Origin: an uncultured Nitrososphaerales archaeon
GTDB lineage: Archaea > Thermoproteota > Nitrososphaeria > Nitrososphaerales > Nitrososphaeraceae
Assembly (NCBI GenBank): GCA_963695855.1
Contig: CAVOHZ010000010.1
Location: 1,536,001-1,600,000, forward strand
Length of the DNA stretch: 64,000 nucleotides
Reading direction: 5' to 3'
Shown: positions 27,546-62,130 of the stretch, one piece after another
Numbering within the stretch: position 1 is the first letter of the stretch
Layout of the letters: each line of letters opens with the position of its first letter
The notes under the pieces: model-generated
Told to the model about the DNA's origin: nothing
The model's input: only the letters and a program-made list of their open reading frames with translations
Databases searched by the model: none
Position numbers and translations under genes: made by a program

Positions 27546-29374
27546 TCGCCCCTGGCAGTTTTTGCACTAAATTTAACATCGTTTCCGTAATCCTGATATA
27601 AATCAGGAGACTCTTCAGATGAAGTAAGTTGCACTACTGGAATCAGAGCAGTTTTAATATCTTCTATACTTTTTATAGTACCATTTGCATTACCAGCCAA
27701 AATATGATCTATCCACAAGCTCAATGGTTCATTAGATTTTTCTTGTTTATATAATTCCACTATTTTCTGAATAACTTCTATGACTCTTTTGGCAGGTACA
27801 CGCATAATGGCTTTCCCCAATTTAGATTCTTCCTCCGAGCTTCCTCCAAACAGCATGGTATATACTGGTGCCATTGTATCACCTATTCTTGCCGCACCTC
27901 CAAAAAATCCGATGGTTGCAATCTCATGTTGTCCACAGGAATTAGGACATCCACTTATTTTGATTGTCGAAGTACGGAGACTGTCATCAATATCAAAACC
28001 TAGCTCTAAAAGATTACGTTGCACTTCCTTTGCCAATCTGTGAGAATTGGTGATTGCCAGATTGCAAGATGTAGTACCCGAACAACCTACTGCTGACGTT
28101 ATTGTCAACGCACCGGGATTTCCCATTCCACTACTATTTAATCTTTTATAAACCTTGGACAAATCATTGTAATGAACATATCGTATTGCGAAATTTTGTT
28201 GGGGTGTATTTCTTGCAACACCTTCAATAGAAAAGTCGCGAATAAGTACGGCCAAAGATCTTAGTTGATTTGCAGTTATATCACCTGCTCCTAAGGTTAC
28301 AAATATTGTGAAGTATCCTTTTTGCTTCTGTGTTACAGTATTTGTGTGTAACCAGCGATCATATCCAGAACTATCTAAGGAAATGGATTCGCTGACAAGT
28401 GGCAATTTACTATTTAACTTCGGGGCTTTGGAAAGTGACATCTGAAAAGAATCATAGTTGAATTGTTGTATTGCAAAAAGATCACGTGTAGATTCAGAAA
28501 TTGTCATCTGCATTATTTTTCTTTCCTTCAAGATTAATTTTTGAAATTTCTCCCATCCTATTTCATTTACCAAATATCGCATTCTATTTCTAGCCATGTT
28601 TTCTCTATTTCCATGTCTGTCGAATATCCTGATAGTAGCCATACAAGTTGATAGAAGATGGTCTTCTGGAGTAAAATCTTCCAACAGATGACCTATAAAT
28701 GAAGCGGCTCCTAGACCGCCACCAAGATATATTCTAAATCCTTTTTTTCCATCTTTTATATCAGGAATCAAACCTATGTCTGCTATCCTAACAAGACCGT
28801 GTTTATCACAGCAACCAAAATTAATTTTGAACTTACGTGGTAAATTTTGAGATATAGGATTACGTAAAAAGAACTTTGCTAGTGCTTTGGAATAAGGAGT
28901 AGCATCAAACATTTCGCCAGAACAGACACCAGCAAAATGGCTACACATGATATTTCTTACAGTATTACCACAGGCTTCTCTAGTGGTCAAACCAACTTCA
29001 ACTAATCCCCTCATAACCTCACTTACATCTTCTAACTGTACCCAATGTAGCTGAATATTTTGTCTAGTTGAAACATGAGCAGATCCTATAGAAAAAGATT
29101 CTGATAATTGTGCGATCTTCTCAAGCTGGTTTGGAGTTATTTCACCACCAGGAACTTTGATACGTATCATACTGTAATCTGGACGCAACCTAGAACCATA
29201 TGCACCATGTTGAAGTCTATATCTTCTAAAATCATCATCAGATAATTTTTCTTGACGATATAATTTAACTTGATTAGCAAAAGTGTCAGTTTCCTTTTCT
29301 AAACCCCATTTTTCATCAGGTCTAGTAAAAGACTTTGGTTTTTGCTTAATTTTCATGAAATCTTTTGTCTTCAA
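27533..29374 (-). CDS. ferredoxin-dependent sirohaem sulfite/nitrite reductase
   Basis: STRQNIQLH, LPRKFKI, CSGTTSC and SGCPNSC cluster ligands. Confidence 0.92.
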   Translation of the reverse strand: MKTKDFMKIKQKPKSFTRPDEKWGLEKETDTFANQVKLYRQEKLSDDDFRRYRLQHGAYGSRLRPDYSMIRIKVPGGEITPNQLEKIAQLSESFSIGSAHVSTRQNIQLHWVQLEDVSEVMRGLVEVGLTTREACGNTVRNIMCSHFAGVCSGEMFDATPYSKALAKFFLRNPISQNLPRKFKINFGCCDKHGLVRIADIGLIPDIKDGKKGFRIYLGGGLGAASFIGHLLEDFTPEDHLLSTCMATIRIFDRHGNRENMARNRMRYLVNEIGWEKFQKLILKERKIMQMTISESTRDLFAIQQFNYDSFQMSLSKAPKLNSKLPLVSESISLDSSGYDRWLHTNTVTQKQKGYFTIFVTLGAGDITANQLRSLAVLIRDFSIEGVARNTPQQNFAIRYVHYNDLSKVYKRLNSSGMGNPGALTITSAVGCSGTTSCNLAITNSHRLAKEVQRNLLELGFDIDDSLRTSTIKISGCPNSCGQHEIATIGFFGGAARIGDTMAPVYTMLFGGSSEEESKLGKAIMRVPAKRVIEVIQKIVELYKQEKSNEPLSLWIDHILAGNANGTIKSIEDIKTALIPVVQLTSSEESPDLYQDYGNDVKFSAKTARGECAA

Positions 29375-58965: not shown

Positions 58966-59793
58966 ATGACATTAGCAAAGAGAATCATACCTTGTTTGGA
59001 TGTAGATAATGGAAGAGTAGTTAAGGGAATAAAGTTTAAAGAAGTAAAGGATGCTGGCGATCCGGTAGAATTTGCGAATAGATATACACAACAAGGAGCA
59101 GATGAACTGGTCTTCTTGGATATTACAGCCTCACAACAGAGACGCGAGATAATAAAGAAAGTAGTACAAAATGTAGCAAGGGTAATAGATATTCCATTTA
59201 CAGTAGGTGGCGGAATCAAGAGACTTGAGGATGCGAGAGATATATTATTAAGCGGAGCAGATAAAGTCTCTATCAATACGTCTGCAGTGAAGAATCCTGA
59301 ATTAATTACAGAGCTGATGTCTATTTTTGGAAGACAATGTATAGTTGTTGCGATCGACGTTAAAAAAAAATATAATGATTTAGATACCAAAAAAAAGAAT
59401 ATAATAAAAGAATATGACAAGAACAATAATCTGATTAAAAAATACTGGTTTGAGGTAAGAATTTACGGTGGAAAAGAGGGTACTGGTATAGATGCTATAG
59501 AATGGGCACGAGAAGTAGAAAAATTAGGTGCCGGTGAACTTCTTTTGACAAGCATTGATGCAGATGGAACAGAAGAAGGGTATGATTTGAAATTGAATGA
59601 TGTAATTTGTAAGACAGTAAGTATTCCGGTCATAGCTTCTGGTGGCTGTGGTAAAGCTATGCATATGTTAGAAGTCTTTAAAAAAACGAATGTAGATGCA
59701 GCATTAGCTGCCTCGATATTCCATTATGAAAAATCAACCATAAATAAAGTAAAAAGATTCTTAAAAAGAAATAATATTCATGTGAGAATATAA
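58966..59793 (+). CDS. hisF: IGP synthase cyclase subunit
   Basis: [30 protein letters not shown]. Confidence 0.96.
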
Positions 59794-59871
59794 AAGACAA
59801 AGCGTTATTGGTTAAAGATCAAATTGCAATAAATTTGGAGAAGCAATCGATAAAAATAGTTACAATAATAT

Positions 59872-60183
59872 CTATTTATTCAACCCTTGTAGATGACCCT
59901 CTTGTTCTAATTTGTCAGCGTGGGCGGCAATATACCTCCAGACAATATCAGCTTTATCTGATTGAAAATCCCATGGAGCAAGAAGAACTAGATCATTTTC
60001 TCTGATCCACATTCGTCTTTTAATTTTTCCACGAATACGACATGTACGAATTTTTCCATCAGTACACTTTACAATAACGTTATCTCCTCCTACTAGTTTG
60101 ATAACTCGTCCAAACATTTCTCCTTCATGCGGCATCACAAGCTCCTTAAGCTCAGCCTCATTCAAAACTTTTCTTTTACCTAA
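59872..60183 (-). CDS. eif1a: translation initiation factor aIF1A; probable true start is TTA at 60183 (first standard start is TTG at 60165)
   Basis: RIRGKIKRRMWIR, PWDFQ, IVWRY; frame extends upstream as TTA GGT AAA AGA AAA GTT TTG AAT (xGKRKVLN). Confidence 0.93.
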   Translation of the reverse strand, partial: LGKRKVLNEAELKELVMPHEGEMFGRVIKLVGGDNVIVKCTDGKIRTCRIRGKIKRRMWIRENDLVLLAPWDFQSDKADIVWRYIAAHADKLEQEGHLQGLNK

Positions 60184-60906
60184 ATCTGATCATTCCTTAA
60201 TTAATTTAGATATAGAGTAATTTAAAAATGTATTGGCAGCTGAGAAAGCGCAGTAATATACAAAAATATTAGTTACACCCAATTAAAATTTTGTTGAAGG
60301 ATATCGTTTATACGTGACTGTTCAATCATAATGATGCATGGGATGTATACATATATTTTTTGCAATTATATTAAAAAGGATGTAAAATAATATTTATTAC
60401 AAATCGAATTTATATAAATTCTGATATTATATTTTTTATCTTTTTAATTATGTCCAAATTTAAAGATATTATAAAGTTCTTATTTATAATATCAAGAGAT
60501 TTCTTTAATGAAAAAATGGATAATATACTACTAAATGATTTCGTTAACTTAATTGATAAAAATATGATGTTTCAAAGTTCTATAATGAATTTTATATAAA
60601 TCTATAACTAAATTGATACAACACTTTATTGTATGACAAAGTAGATTTATTTAAGTTGATTGGTACAAAACTGGCAAGAAAGTATCTATTATTTGATGCT
60701 TTCCTTTATAAAGGTACTCTGGATTACAGATATTTTTGGATTTTATTGTAGACTGCTAAAAGAACATAAACTGGAAAGAGTAGTATCAACATCCGTTGTA
60801 GTAAACAAGATAACATATATTGGTTTTTGGGGTATTCTTGTAATATTTATCTATAAATATATTTAATTTCGAATTCCTTTGGTTCTTATACTCTTTATTT
60901 TATAAT

Positions 60907-62130
60907 TTGTTTATAATGGTTGTTGGTATTGAGGTCGGACAGTTCATCCAAGATTTTTCAGTTATTATGATTATTGCATCTGTCATGGCGTTCATCTCAT
61001 TTAAATTTAAACAACCGCTAGTTATTGGTTATATCCTTGCAGGAATGATCATCGGTCCACATACTCCACCATTTAGTTTAATATTAAATCCAGATATTTT
61101 GAATTTGTTTGCAGAAATGGGTATAATTCTTTTGTTATTTGTTGTTGGTATGGAATTTCCTATAGACAAACTACGCAAAATTGGAAAGAAAGCATTAATG
61201 ATAGCAACATCAGAAGCATTTGGAACATTTGTGATAGGTTTTTCTGTAAGTTTCTTTCTACTAAATTTTTCATTTTTCGATTCAGCATTTGTTGCACTTG
61301 CAATTTCAGTTACTAGTACCATCATCATTATGAAGGTATTAGAAGAGCTAGATATAATCAAGGAAGAGGCATCCTATATAGTTCTGGGAGTAGCGGTAAT
61401 GGAAGACATCTTAATTATCTCAATGTTGGCAGTATTACAATCTGTTAGTTCGTCATCAGGGGATCTGTCAATTGTTGATATTTTAATATCTATTAGTATA
61501 ACAATTGCATTTATTTTTGGAGTCTTGTTTTTAGGATCAAAAACTATACCAAAATTTATCAATTTTATTGGCAAATTCAATCAACATGAGGTTCTGATAC
61601 TAGTGGTTCTAGGAGTGGCATTTGGGTTATCCTATATATCTTATCAAATAGGAATCTCAGTAGCAACAGGTGCATTCTTTGCTGGTGTACTGATAGCAGA
61701 ATCAAAAGTTCATGCAGTTACAAGAATTTTAGCAACTCCAATTAGAGATATGTTTGGAGCAATATTTTTTGTATCTGTTGGTGCACTAATGGACATGTCG
61801 TTATTAGTGGTATTTATTATTCCAGCTTCAATCTTGGTGATAGTTTCAATTTCTGCCAAATTTCTTACGGTATTTCTCTCATCAAAATCGCAACGATTTA
61901 GTTCAGCAACTTCTATGAAGGCAGCTTTTGGTCTATCTTCATCAGGAGGAGAACTAGCACTTGTTGTAGCAAAAGGTGGAGCAGATACAGGTCTTACAAG
62001 TGCATTTCTTCTTCCAATGATAGGAGCAATGACCATAATTACAACATTTATCTCGCCTTATATGATTAAACTAGGTTGGAAACTACCAGATAAGATACTA
62101 TCATCTAAAAATGAAGAAAAAGATAGATAA
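60907..62130 (+). CDS. CPA2-family cation:proton antiporter (paralogue of 36191-37462)
   Basis: GYILAGMIIGPHTPPF, VMEDI, GAFFAG, FFVSVG. Confidence 0.9.
   Translation: MFIMVVGIEVGQFIQDFSVIMIIASVMAFISFKFKQPLVIGYILAGMIIGPHTPPFSLILNPDILNLFAEMGIILLLFVVGMEFPIDKLRKIGKKALMIATSEAFGTFVIGFSVSFFLLNFSFFDSAFVALAISVTSTIIIMKVLEELDIIKEEASYIVLGVAVMEDILIISMLAVLQSVSSSSGDLSIVDILISISITIAFIFGVLFLGSKTIPKFINFIGKFNQHEVLILVVLGVAFGLSYISYQIGISVATGAFFAGVLIAESKVHAVTRILATPIRDMFGAIFFVSVGALMDMSLLVVFIIPASILVIVSISAKFLTVFLSSKSQRFSSATSMKAAFGLSSSGGELALVVAKGGADTGLTSAFLLPMIGAMTIITTFISPYMIKLGWKLPDKILSSKNEEKDR

What the first reader, a model, noticed from the sequence alone, without database searches (positions are those of the whole stretch)
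60160..60225. aIF1A has TTA at its expected start codon, overlapped by a 5-codon uORF
Seen (minus strand): AAGGA ATG ATC AGA TTT AGG TAA overlaps the main frame TGA TCA GAT TTA GGT AAA AGA AAA GTT TTG AAT. The segment GKRKVLN looks like the basic N-tail I recall for thaumarchaeal aIF1A (MGKR...), yet the codon at the Met position is TTA (60183-81) and an in-frame stop lies three codons upstream. The only nearby ATG (60193) opens MIRFR-stop, one base out of frame. Established: start-selection factors autoregulate through poor start signals (bacterial infC ATT start, eukaryotic eIF1 weak context, eIF5 uORFs). Inference: possible archaeal autoregulation by near-cognate initiation, uORF control, or a +1 frameshift at TTT-AGG-TAA. 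A TTG>TTA error or simple use of TTG 60165 are the dull alternatives.
Basis: partly seen in the sequence, partly recalled or inferred. Interest (0 to 1): 0.7.

Follow-up and report, generated by a model that had tools for sequence, protein, structure and literature searches.

The report
aIF1A gene starts at UUA codon
In a whole family of soil ammonia-oxidising archaea, the gene for translation start factor aIF1A begins at UUA or AUA where relatives have AUG, GUG or UUG, and selection appears to keep it so, which recalls the self-regulating odd start codon of bacterial IF3.

Summary
On the minus strand the aIF1A frame reads TGA TCA GAT TTA GGT AAA AGA AAA GTT TTG, and ATG 60193 opens MIRFR-stop.

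The TTA is not an error. The codon before GKRKV is TTA in 22 of 22 loci of the same genus. It is TTA (63) or ATA (30) in 93 of 93 distinct loci from 18 genera of the family. In 73 of 76 loci from other families of the class it is ATG, GTG or TTG.

Codon-periodic conservation starts at the Gly codon directly after it. In-frame stops lie four codons or fewer upstream in 39 of 93 loci. The third base A never varies, while the first base switched between A and T several times. The downstream TTG is an ordinary Leu codon.

The uORF occurs in only 3 of 22 genus loci, so uORF control and +1 frameshifting are not general.

Best reading: real initiation at UUA/AUA on a short leader with Shine-Dalgarno-like pairing, kept non-canonical by selection. 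Feedback like infC is inferred, not shown.

At least two other gene families in this genome also seem to start at ATA.

The parts
59872..60183 (-). aIF1A coding sequence as proposed here: TTA start codon, 102 sense codons (GKRKVLNEAELK...GLNK), TAG stop
   Evidence: The start position is set by comparison with 169 distinct loci.
60181..60183 (-). TTA at the position of the start codon
   Evidence: TTA in 22 of 22 genus loci. TTA 63 and ATA 30 in 93 family loci. ATG, GTG or TTG at the same place in 73 of 76 loci of other families. Bases 2 and 3 are invariant.
60166..60180 (-). Codons for the basic N-terminal tail GKRKV
   Evidence: First and second codon positions are invariant in 93 loci and third positions vary, including AGA/CGN Arg switches. 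Mean entropy for codons 2-16 is 0.48/0.20/1.31 bits by codon position, against 1.5/1.5/1.6 upstream.
60190..60192 (-). In-frame TGA three codons upstream of the TTA
   Evidence: Present in L001-L003 only within the genus; the other 19 read GGA.
60176..60193 (-). Five-codon uORF ATG ATC AGA TTT AGG TAA, out of frame with and overlapping the start
   Evidence: Found in 3 of 22 genus loci. Similar NTG-started uORFs occur in genera g18 and g22, but 45 of 93 family loci have none.
60187..60198 (-). AAGGAATGATCA, complementary to the 16S rRNA 3' tail GGAUCACCUCCU (Shine-Dalgarno-like)
   Evidence: The 16S 3' end was read. Duplex energy is -9.2 kcal/mol here and -7.2 for the genus-majority form. Family loci have a median of -7.1 against a shuffled mean of -4.2. 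Loci with canonical starts show no enrichment.
60217..60235 (-). CAATACATTTTTAAATTAC, a genus-conserved BRE/TATA-like box; by its distance it predicts a transcript start near 60198
   Evidence: Conserved in the alignment. The distance rule comes from the passages (TATA box 23-24 nt before leaderless ATGs) and. This is inference; the A+T-rich stretch 60204-60215 is a second possible box.
60188..60189 (-). Place where a metatranscriptome contig ends and runs into sequencing-adapter letters; a hint of an RNA 5' end
   Evidence: run X3 record 9: 60152-60189 with 0 differences, depth 9.7, then adapter letters. One contig from one run, so this is weak.
60163..60165 (-). TTG that gene callers take as the start (97-aa MNEAELK form); read here as Leu codon 7
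   Evidence: The public 97-aa annotation is P0014. The codon is TTG, TTA, CTA, CTC, CTG or CTT in other genera.
59935..60123 (-). OB-fold core of aIF1A (Pfam eIF-1a match)
   Evidence: residues 23-85 of the read-through that starts at 60189.

Best explanation
The aIF1A protein of this archaeon starts at the TTA codon 60183-60181. This is the place where other Nitrososphaeria have ATG, GTG or TTG. The whole family (Nitrososphaeraceae, by the names on near-identical public proteins) has replaced the canonical start by AUA or UUA and has kept it. The basic GKRKV tail is still made. Shown by comparison: the position of the start, that the tail is translated, and that the third base A is held constant and never becomes G, although one A-to-G change would give AUG or UUG. 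Inferred: the initiator tRNA (its anticodon loop is normal) reads this poor codon on a short leader of roughly 5-15 bases, helped by pairing of the leader with the 16S rRNA 3' tail and by a purine at -3 and G at +4. Also inferred: the poor codon makes aIF1A output depend on how strictly the initiation machinery (aIF1, aIF1A, aIF2) rejects non-canonical starts. That would be a feedback or balance loop of the kind known for bacterial infC (AUU/AUC start) and eukaryotic eIF1 (poor context). The 5-codon uORF of this genome is most likely a side product of two substitutions (GGA>TGA, TTA>TCA) that improve pairing with the rRNA tail.
For: Position: the codon before GKRKV is TTA in 22 of 22 genus loci, and TTA 63 / ATA 30 in 93 of 93 distinct family loci from 18 genera. 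It is ATG 45, TTG 15, GTG 13 in 73 of 76 loci of other families.
No room upstream: the nearest in-frame stop lies 1-4 codons upstream in 39 of 93 loci. It is directly adjacent in one locus (L085, TAA ATA GGC) and two codons up in nine. 84 of 93 loci have no in-frame canonical start within 30 bases.
Translation of the tail: three-base periodicity starts exactly at +4.
Selection on the codon: +2 and +3 are polymorphic within 0 of 13 genera, neighbouring third positions within 4-7 of 13, and +1 within 4 of 13. On a quick tree the family is one clade (support 97), with 8-9 changes of the ATA/TTA labels by parsimony (at least 4 forced by well-supported branches) and no canonical start among its 93 loci.
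Context: A at -2 in 90 of 93 and a purine at -3 in 91 of 93.
Leader: 52% of family loci pair with the rRNA tail at -7 kcal/mol or better, against 12% of shuffles. For canonical-start loci the figures are 19% against 14%.
Promoter: TATA-like heptamers start at -27 to -30 in 34 of 42 loci of family f13, which fits leaderless mRNA. They start at -35 to -43 in 69 of 93 family loci (the pattern list is ad hoc).
RNA: metatranscriptome contigs carry the unchanged UUA and reach 60189.
tRNA: the only initiator-type anticodon stem-loop found has a normal CAU loop.
Analogy: infC AUU/AUC autoregulation (passages of PMC5499595) and eIF1 poor-context autoregulation (passages of PMC6237735).
Against: No protein N-terminus, mapped transcript start or ribosome footprint was seen; all of this is comparative.
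UUA differs from AUG at two positions, and I found no precedent for it as a regular start.
If a weak codon were all that is needed, AUU, AUC, CUG or GUA should also occur. Only AUA and UUA do, so something more specific may be read. With the following GG these codons always give UAG in the +1 frame.
The feedback idea is analogy only. aIF1, not aIF1A, is the factor reported to reject non-canonical starts in archaea (passage).
Other genes of this genome also seem to start at ATA, which weakens a reading special to aIF1A.
Some family loci pair poorly with the rRNA tail (-2.7 to -3.8 kcal/mol). By the promoter distance the pairing bases may lie at or before the transcript start in some genera.
The loci are related, so counts across them overstate independence.
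Confidence: 0.6

Rival explanations
1. AUA and UUA are a general class of start codon in this family. aIF1A is only its most conserved user and has no feedback of its own. The lineage's initiation machinery tolerates A at the third position.
For: IS481-like transposase: at least 13 full-length copies in two subfamilies. Its HTH domains lie at residues 15-108, but the first ATG/GTG/TTG is codon 73. The frame opens TAA/TAC AAA ATA GAA (A/T)TA.
Winged-helix/CBS gene: the domain starts near residue 15 and the first canonical start is codon 50. Its ATA aligns with the ATG of a congener, and the same 18 bases occur in three species of two genera.
pstC: TTA here where 11 congeners have TTG, and ATA against ATG in two close relatives (the alignment is uncertain).
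An earlier scan note, e1-5818233, reports TTA/ATA starts in capsid-like genes of ammonia oxidisers (unchecked).
Some public records already begin MGK(R/K)KV, so pipelines took ATA as the start.
Against: If NUA worked as well as NUG, ATG and TTG should drift in among the 93 aIF1A loci. None is seen, while silent sites nearby turn over freely.
The genome-wide screen was crude. Many candidates proved to be homopolymer frameshifts, so the number of NUA starts is unknown.
This rival is compatible with the best explanation: a general codon class whose use by aIF1A is itself regulatory.
Confidence: 0.25
2. The codon is a restart site. Ribosomes translate a tiny upstream frame, possibly leaderless, terminate at a stop that overlaps or abuts the AUA/UUA, and start again there without needing a canonical codon.
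For: [A/T]TA GG gives TAG in the +1 frame in 93 of 93 loci.
39 of 93 loci have an out-of-frame uORF with a canonical start within 30 bases that reaches the start. Several of these end exactly on that TAG, for example genus g19 with ATG GTG TTT GAG ACT TAG.
This genome has ATG...TAA ending 2 bases past the start codon.
The transposase has GTG TAT A(A/C)A AAA TAG ending on ATAG.
The winged-helix/CBS gene has ATG AAA TAA ending on ATAA.
Termination-reinitiation coupling is established in archaea and bacteria (PMC6728339; listing and start of abstract only).
Against: 45 of 93 loci have no such uORF within 30 bases, and 19 of 22 in this genus have none.
The uORFs that exist differ in frame, length and stop position.
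The TAG follows automatically from the A plus the Gly codon.
Upstream positions show no three-base periodicity.
The one RNA end seen (60188/60189) lies downstream of the ATG, although RNA-seq ends can fall a few bases short.
Confidence: 0.12
3. Programmed +1 frameshift from the ATG-started uORF (at TTT A GG) gives MIRFGKRKV...
For: The ATG 60193 frame runs over the start, and TTT-AGG-T loosely recalls known +1 sites (the resemblance is recalled, not tested).
Against: The ATG is absent from 19 of 22 genus loci and from most genera. The would-be slippery codon differs between genera (TTT here, AAT in g18). 45 of 93 loci have no upstream start at all. The residues MIRF are not conserved.
Confidence: 0.02
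4. Translation starts at the downstream TTG 60165, so the protein has lost its basic tail (the 97-aa form of public annotation).
For: TTG is the first canonical start. It is invariant in the 22 genus loci. Public records carry this 97-aa form (P0014).
Against: The GKRKV codons keep a strict protein-coding pattern in 93 loci. The Leu codon is not a start codon in most other genera, and no downstream canonical start is conserved in position.
Confidence: 0.03
5. The third-position A is edited to inosine in the RNA, so that AUA reads as AUG and UUA as UUG.
For: It would explain why only A is allowed at the third position and why A or T is allowed at the first.
Against: The RNA-derived contig covering 60152-60189 shows no difference from the DNA. 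Contigs do drop minor variants, so partial editing is not excluded. I know of no archaeal mRNA editing of this kind (recalled).
Confidence: 0.02

Closest known systems
Bacterial infC (IF3) with an AUU/AUC start codon, autoregulated by IF3
   Same: A core initiation-factor gene carries a phylogenetically conserved non-canonical start codon where AUG would be one mutation away. For infC the conservation is explained by feedback through start-codon discrimination (PMC5499595, abstract and passages).
   Different: The factor here is aIF1A, the homologue of bacterial IF1, not the discriminating factor. The codons are AUA and UUA, and UUA is not a one-mismatch near-cognate. No feedback has been shown. 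The case is limited to one archaeal family plus three related families, each sampled once.
Eukaryotic eIF1 (AUG in poor context) and eIF5 (uORFs) autoregulation through start-selection stringency
   Same: These factors of the same eukaryote/archaea-type machinery tune their own synthesis through suboptimal start signals (PMC6237735 passages; PMC3326321 listing and start of abstract). A purine at -3 and G at +4 are conserved here too.
   Different: Here the codon itself is non-canonical while its context looks good. The uORF is not conserved. eIF1A itself is not known to me to be regulated this way (recalled).
Translational coupling by termination-reinitiation at overlapping stop/start (ATGA, TGATG) in archaea and bacteria
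   Same: A stop codon in another frame overlaps the start (TTAG, ATAG, ATAA), and tiny upstream frames exist in some loci (PMC6728339 listing and start of abstract).
   Different: The upstream frames are tiny, differ between genera and are absent from about half of the loci. The restart codon would be non-canonical.
Rare annotated non-ATG/GTG/TTG starts of genetic code table 11 (ATA, ATT, ATC, CTG)
   Same: Public pipelines already accept ATA as a start for some of these genes (MGK... records).
   Different: TTA is not among the start codons I recall for table 11 (recalled). TTA-type genes are annotated with wrong upstream or downstream starts: lengths run from 89 to 162 aa in the 120 records listed, and the N-termini of 16 of them were read.

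Membership tests
aIF1A / eIF1A (Pfam PF01176) | OB-fold eIF-1a domain | tested here: met
   E 3.6e-22, 78.2 bits against a cut-off of 30.2, profile positions 1-64 of 64.
aIF1A / eIF1A (Pfam PF01176) | Single orthologous locus with a conserved N-terminal basic tail across the class | tested here: met
   one match in the genome; matches in 38 of 41, 140 of 151 and 200 of 201 genomes. The GK(R/K)(K/Q/R)V tail is present in 179 of the 181 aIF1A loci examined (182 loci held, one of them the 16S locus).
Initiation-factor genes autoregulated through a suboptimal start (infC / eIF1 type) | Phylogenetically conserved non-canonical or poor start signal | tested here: met
   93 of 93 family loci carry TTA or ATA; the third base is invariant; no canonical start occurs among them.
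Initiation-factor genes autoregulated through a suboptimal start (infC / eIF1 type) | The encoded factor changes the use of such start signals | not testable with these tools
   Only aIF1 is reported to discriminate against non-canonical starts in archaea (PMC6237735 passage). The role of aIF1A here is inferred from eukaryotic eIF1A (recalled).
Initiation-factor genes autoregulated through a suboptimal start (infC / eIF1 type) | Feedback lost when the start is made canonical | not testable with these tools
   Needs reporters or in vitro initiation assays.
uORF-controlled or termination-reinitiation genes | A conserved upstream reading frame with its own start, ending at a fixed place relative to the main start | tested here: not met
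   3 of 22 in the genus. 45 of 93 family loci have none within 30 bases. The frames and end points of the others differ.
Programmed +1 frameshift genes (prfB type) | Conserved upstream frame with a canonical start, plus a conserved slippery site | tested here: not met
   the ATG and the TTT-AGG site are lineage-specific.
Leaderless archaeal mRNA | TATA box about 23-28 bases before the start codon | tested here: inconclusive
   Met in family f13 (TATA-like heptamer at -27 to -30 in 34 of 42 loci). In this family the heptamer lies at -35 to -43 in 69 of 93 loci, which suggests a short leader (ad hoc patterns). This window has two candidate boxes, and one RNA contig ends at 60188/60189.

The most novel reading that the evidence does not exclude
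Nitrososphaeraceae have a second, regulated class of start codon, NUA (AUA and UUA). It is read on short leaders in a fixed context (purine at -3, A at -2, a purine at +4 that creates an overlapping UAG/UAA). It is used by aIF1A in every member, and also by transposases, regulators and virus-like capsid genes. aIF1A, whose basic tail lies next to the codon-anticodon pair in the eukaryotic homologue (recalled), sits in a feedback loop that sets how readily NUA starts are accepted. The factor would thus control a whole regulon of NUA-started genes, its own gene included.
Probability: 0.2. Interest if true: 0.9.

Novelty: new variant of a known kind. Interest (0 to 1): 0.75.

Why it matters
A conserved odd start codon on an initiation-factor gene is the hallmark of the classic IF3 feedback loop in bacteria. 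I found no report of an archaeal counterpart in five full-text searches.

Here a core factor of the eukaryote-like archaeal initiation machinery has carried AUA or UUA across 18 genera, through gene duplications, and has never reverted to AUG, GUG or UUG. UUA is two mismatches from AUG and is not, as far as I recall, an accepted start in any standard table.

If confirmed, three things follow:
- It gives a natural system for asking how the aIF1/aIF1A/aIF2 complex judges start codons.
- It shows that gene callers mis-annotate this gene and probably others in an abundant group of soil nitrifiers. The 120 best public homologues listed are annotated at lengths from 89 to 162 residues.
- It suggests that start-codon choice is a regulatory layer in these organisms.

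Tried and rejected
Sequencing or assembly error at 60181: rejected by 22 of 22 and 93 of 93 loci from many assemblies.

Known RNA element: no Rfam match at E up to 1 in 59700-60500.

Conserved RNA structure around the start: RNAalifold on 85 distinct family sequences (-25 to +45) gave no structure. The single-sequence fold was -8.6 kcal/mol against shuffles of -6.5 +/- 2.3.

Odd initiator tRNA: aragorn missed the initiator and found two other CAU tRNAs. A pattern search found one GGGCTCATAACCC stem-loop with a normal anticodon loop.

aIF1 gene: it has an ordinary ATG start, so not all start-selection factors here carry odd starts.

RNA evidence: only metatranscriptome contigs were on offer, no raw reads of a culture. 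There was no cover at 60190-60500, which says nothing either way. The adapter junction at 60188/60189 is a single contig.

Genome-wide screen: I screened for coding signal upstream of the first canonical start. The shuffle control was uninformative, and many top hits are frameshifts, several at A-runs. The screen therefore gave examples, not a count.

pstC as a third example: the alignment at the N-terminus is uncertain, and a conserved block upstream changes frame between species. I treat it as suggestive only.

Careful maximum-likelihood tree: it did not finish in 300 s, so the quick tree was used. 79 of 148 inner forks are unresolved and there are only 102 columns.

Earlier-notes look-ups by place gave nothing on this locus.
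Full report
**What is there.**
On the minus strand the window reads ...TTAAGGA ATG ATC AGA TTT AGG TAA AAG.... In the frame of the long ORF the codons are TGA (60192-60190), TCA, GAT, TTA (60183-60181), GGT AAA AGA AAA GTT, TTG (60165-60163), AAT GAG. One search translates this as IKE*SDLGKRKVLNEAELK.... The ATG at 60193 opens MIRFR-stop in another frame. ORF listing puts the first canonical start at TTG 60165, which gives a 97-residue protein. The protein is aIF1A (Pfam eIF-1a, E 3.6e-22), and it is the only copy found in the genome.

**Is the TTA real, and is it the start?**
I fetched the homologous locus from relatives and lined them up on the GKRKV codons.

- Same genus: all 22 loci have TTA directly before GGN AAA AGA AAA.
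- Family-wide: 151 genomes searched, 140 with a match, 18 of 18 genera. I fetched 60 further regions. Of the 70 loci L031-L100 (10, 60), 69 showed the tail, and every one had TTA or ATA before it. The 70th is a variant paralogue, described below.
- Class-wide: 201 genomes searched, 200 with a match, and 60 more regions fetched. Outside the family the same position holds ATG, GTG or TTG.
- After removing duplicates there are 169 distinct loci. The family has 93 (TTA 63, ATA 30). The other families have 76 (ATG 45, TTG 15, GTG 13). The three exceptions are L024 TTA, L025 ATA and L028 ATA, from three families that the quick tree places near this one.

This position is therefore the start codon of the gene throughout the class, and one clade has exchanged it for ATA/TTA. 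None of the loci in these tables comes from the genomes flagged as unpublished (G073, G111, G130, G274). Those genomes count only in the search tallies.

**The tail is translated, and nothing upstream is.**
- Within the 93 family loci, positions +4 to +39 show the signature of a protein. Mean entropy by codon position is 0.48, 0.20 and 1.31 bits, against 1.51, 1.50 and 1.60 upstream. Arg is written AGA, AGG, CGT, CGC or CGA.
- The nearest in-frame stop lies one to four codons upstream in 39 of 93 loci. In L085 it touches the start (TAA ATA GGC).
- 84 of 93 loci have no in-frame ATG/GTG/TTG within 30 bases.
- The first canonical start downstream sits at codon 6, 7, 12, 15, 16, 17, 27, 38 or 58 depending on the locus. 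No conserved alternative start exists.
- The TTG at 60165 is a Leu codon. It is written TTG, TTA, CTA, CTC, CTG or CTT elsewhere.

**Selection keeps the codon non-canonical.**
- Bases +2 (T) and +3 (A) are the same in 93 of 93 loci.
- Within genera, +3 is polymorphic in 0 of 13 genera that have two or more loci. The third positions of the next five codons are polymorphic in 4 to 7 of 13, and +1 in 4 of 13.
- On a quick and poorly resolved tree the family forms one clade (support 97). The ATA and TTA labels change 8-9 times by parsimony, with at least 4 changes forced by well-supported branches. No locus in the clade has ATG, GTG or TTG.
- A single A-to-G change would give a canonical start, so its complete absence argues that G is selected against.
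- Only A and T occur at +1. GTA, CTA, ATT and ATC never do. The requirement is thus narrower than "any weak codon", and I cannot explain that.

**Context and leader.**
- A at -2 (90 of 93) and a purine at -3 (91 of 93) are conserved.
- The genome's 16S rRNA ends ...GGATCACCTCCT.
- The 18 bases upstream of the start pair with this tail better than shuffles do in the family: median -7.1 kcal/mol, and 52% at -7 or better against 12% of shuffles. Loci with canonical starts show no such excess (median -3.3; 19% against 14%).
- In this window AAGGAATGATCA gives -9.2 kcal/mol. That value is reached by 3.7% of the genome's gene starts and 1.2% of control windows. The genus-majority form AAGGAAGGATTAG gives -7.2.
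- The two substitutions that set G000, G019 and G014 apart (GGA>TGA, TTA>TCA) create both the better pairing (UGAUCA) and the ATG of the uORF. This is why I read the uORF as a by-product.
- In family f13, TATA-like heptamers start 27-30 bases before the start codon in 34 of 42 loci. This fits leaderless mRNA and the 23-24-base rule described for amo genes of these archaea (PMC3379541, passages).
- In this family the heptamers start at -35 to -43 in 69 of 93 loci (my pattern list is ad hoc). That suggests a leader of some 7-15 bases.
- Caveats: some family loci pair poorly with the tail (-2.7 to -3.8). In some genera the pairing bases may lie at the very 5' end of the transcript. I assumed the same rRNA tail for all genomes.

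**RNA.**
Only metatranscriptome contigs were available. They cover the ORF. One contig (run X3, 59 letters, depth 9.7) matches 60152-60189 without a difference and then runs into adapter letters. This shows two things:
- The RNA carries UUA, so no dominant editing occurs.
- There is a hint of an RNA 5' end at 60188/60189, five or six bases before the TTA and downstream of the uORF's ATG.

This is one contig from one run, and RNA-seq ends can fall short of the true 5' end, so it is not decisive.

**uORF and frameshift.**
- The uORF is present in 3 of 22 genus loci.
- Across the family, 45 of 93 loci have no ATG/GTG/TTG within 30 bases that opens a frame running into or over the start. 39 have an out-of-frame uORF in one frame or the other, with differing lengths and ends. 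9 have an in-frame start, mostly TTG at -12.
- Genus g18 has NTG ATy AGA AAT AGG TAA in 10 of its 11 loci, and genus g19 has ATG GTG TTT GAG ACT TAG ending on the overlapping TAG.
- Such frames may matter locally, but they cannot be the general mechanism.
- A +1 frameshift at TTT-AGG has no conserved start and no conserved slippery site.

**Not unique to aIF1A.**
A note from this scan on other DNA (e1-5818233) reported TTA/ATA starts in capsid-like genes of ammonia oxidisers, so I looked for other cases in this genome. A crude screen for coding signal upstream of the first canonical start mostly found frameshifts at A-runs, which looks like assembly noise. It also found the following.

1. An IS481-like transposase with at least 13 full-length copies in two subfamilies. 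Its HTH domains lie at residues 15-108, but its first canonical start is codon 73. The frame opens TAA/TAC AAA ATA GAA (A/T)TA, preceded by AGGAAGTG.
2. A winged-helix/CBS gene. Its domain begins near residue 15 and its first canonical start is codon 50. It reads ATG CAG TGA TAT GAA ATA ATC, and the ATA aligns with the ATG of a congener. The same 18 bases are kept in three species of two genera.
3. pstC, less surely: TTA here where 11 congeners have TTG, and ATA against ATG in two close relatives.

In the first two cases a tiny frame ends on a stop overlapping the ATA (ATAG, ATAA). So AUA, and perhaps UUA, seems to be a working start codon in this lineage more widely. This weakens a reading special to aIF1A, but it does not explain why aIF1A never carries NUG.

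**What is known.**
- Full-text searches for aIF1A with non-canonical starts, AUA or UUA starts in archaea, and start codons or leaderless transcripts in these organisms found no report. Passages of two reviews and papers on archaeal initiation mention only eIF1's poor-context feedback and aIF1's discrimination against non-canonical codons.
- The best-known parallel is infC. Its AUU/AUC start is conserved in bacteria and is the target of feedback by IF3 (PMC5499595). The same paper found AUA to work about as well as AUG on an infA (IF1) mRNA in E. coli extracts, so AUA need not be weak.
- Public annotation is inconsistent. The 120 best homologues listed range from 89 to 162 residues. Of the 16 whose sequences I read, six start MGK(R/K)KV at 101-103 residues, which implies that a pipeline accepted ATA. 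The TTA-type genes among them start upstream or at the downstream TTG. I did not see the DNA behind those records.

**Verdict.**
- The start of aIF1A at UUA/AUA is a conserved, selected feature of a whole archaeal family. I rate this at about 0.9 for the position of the N-terminus and about 0.6 for direct reading by the initiator tRNA.
- The uORF and the frameshift are lineage-specific side issues.
- Feedback of the infC type is plausible (about 0.35) but untested.
- The narrow choice of AUA/UUA, always giving an overlapping UAG, is unexplained.

Noticed in passing
G000 contig C10:759800-760130 (locus L183:1400-1445), outside the window: The aIF1 (SUI1) gene starts with an ordinary ATG. It is preceded by a six-codon frame ATG AAA AGA ATA GGT AAA TAA that ends 3 bases before it. 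A TATA-like box lies about 24 bases before that small frame, so the frame may be a leaderless uORF.
   Followed up: partly
G000, for example C3:299225-300169 (L184:126-1067), C5:28648-29589 (L185), and at least 11 more copies: An IS481-like transposase family whose HTH domains lie upstream of the first ATG/GTG/TTG (codon 73). The frame opens AAA ATA GAA (A/T)TA after a stop. The small frame GTG TAT A(A/C)A AAA TAG ends on ATAG, and AGGAAGTG lies just upstream.
   Followed up: partly
G000 C10:355908-357017 minus strand (L186:62-1168): A winged-helix plus four-CBS-domain gene with no canonical start before codon 50. It reads ATG CAG TGA TAT GAA ATA ATC. The ATA aligns with the ATG of a congener, and the same 18 bases are kept in G019 and in G061, which belongs to another genus.
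   Followed up: partly
G000 C10:1657689-1658987 minus strand (L188): An Mre11-like phosphoesterase. Its domain starts at residue 14 but its first canonical start is codon 109. An ATG-started frame of 14 codons ends at GGG TGA just where the main frame continues. This could be a +1 frameshift site, an ATA start directly after a TGA, or an assembly error.
   Followed up: no
G000 C8:335454-335981, C4:96992-98239, C3:284042-284674: An OsmC-like gene, a membrane-protein gene and an amidase gene each continue from an ATG-started frame after a one-base shift, two of them at A-runs (A7, A5). This looks like homopolymer errors of the assembly, or real frameshifts. It is a warning for any single-genome reading in G000.
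   Followed up: partly
L096 (G088 contig C12:146803-147328): A second aIF1A copy in one genome has TTAAGC instead of TTAGGC and one extra A further on. This brings an ATG inside the former Asn-Glu codons into frame, so this paralogue starts MKAALKEM... with a canonical ATG and lacks the GKRKV tail.
   Followed up: no
Family loci of genera g28, g29, g30, g33, g34: Several genomes carry two to five aIF1A matches. ATA-type and TTA-type paralogues occur side by side in the same genome, for example G053, G112 and G065.
   Followed up: partly
G000 C2 near 28145-28260: The only initiator-type anticodon stem-loop (GGGCTCATAACCC) lies in a stretch that aragorn does not call as a tRNA, presumably because the gene carries introns. 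aragorn found only 37 tRNA genes even with intron search on.
   Followed up: no
pstC loci L219-L239: A block (A/C)GAGGCGTAACATTCAACACGAAT is conserved upstream of pstC in the genus, often directly after a stop. It sits in a different frame in G000 and G019, so it is probably a non-coding regulatory element.
   Followed up: no
window 58966-59793 (+) and 60907-62130 (+): The neighbours of aIF1A are hisF (convergent; its end lies 79 bases from the aIF1A stop) and a 407-residue multi-pass membrane protein on the other side.
   Followed up: no
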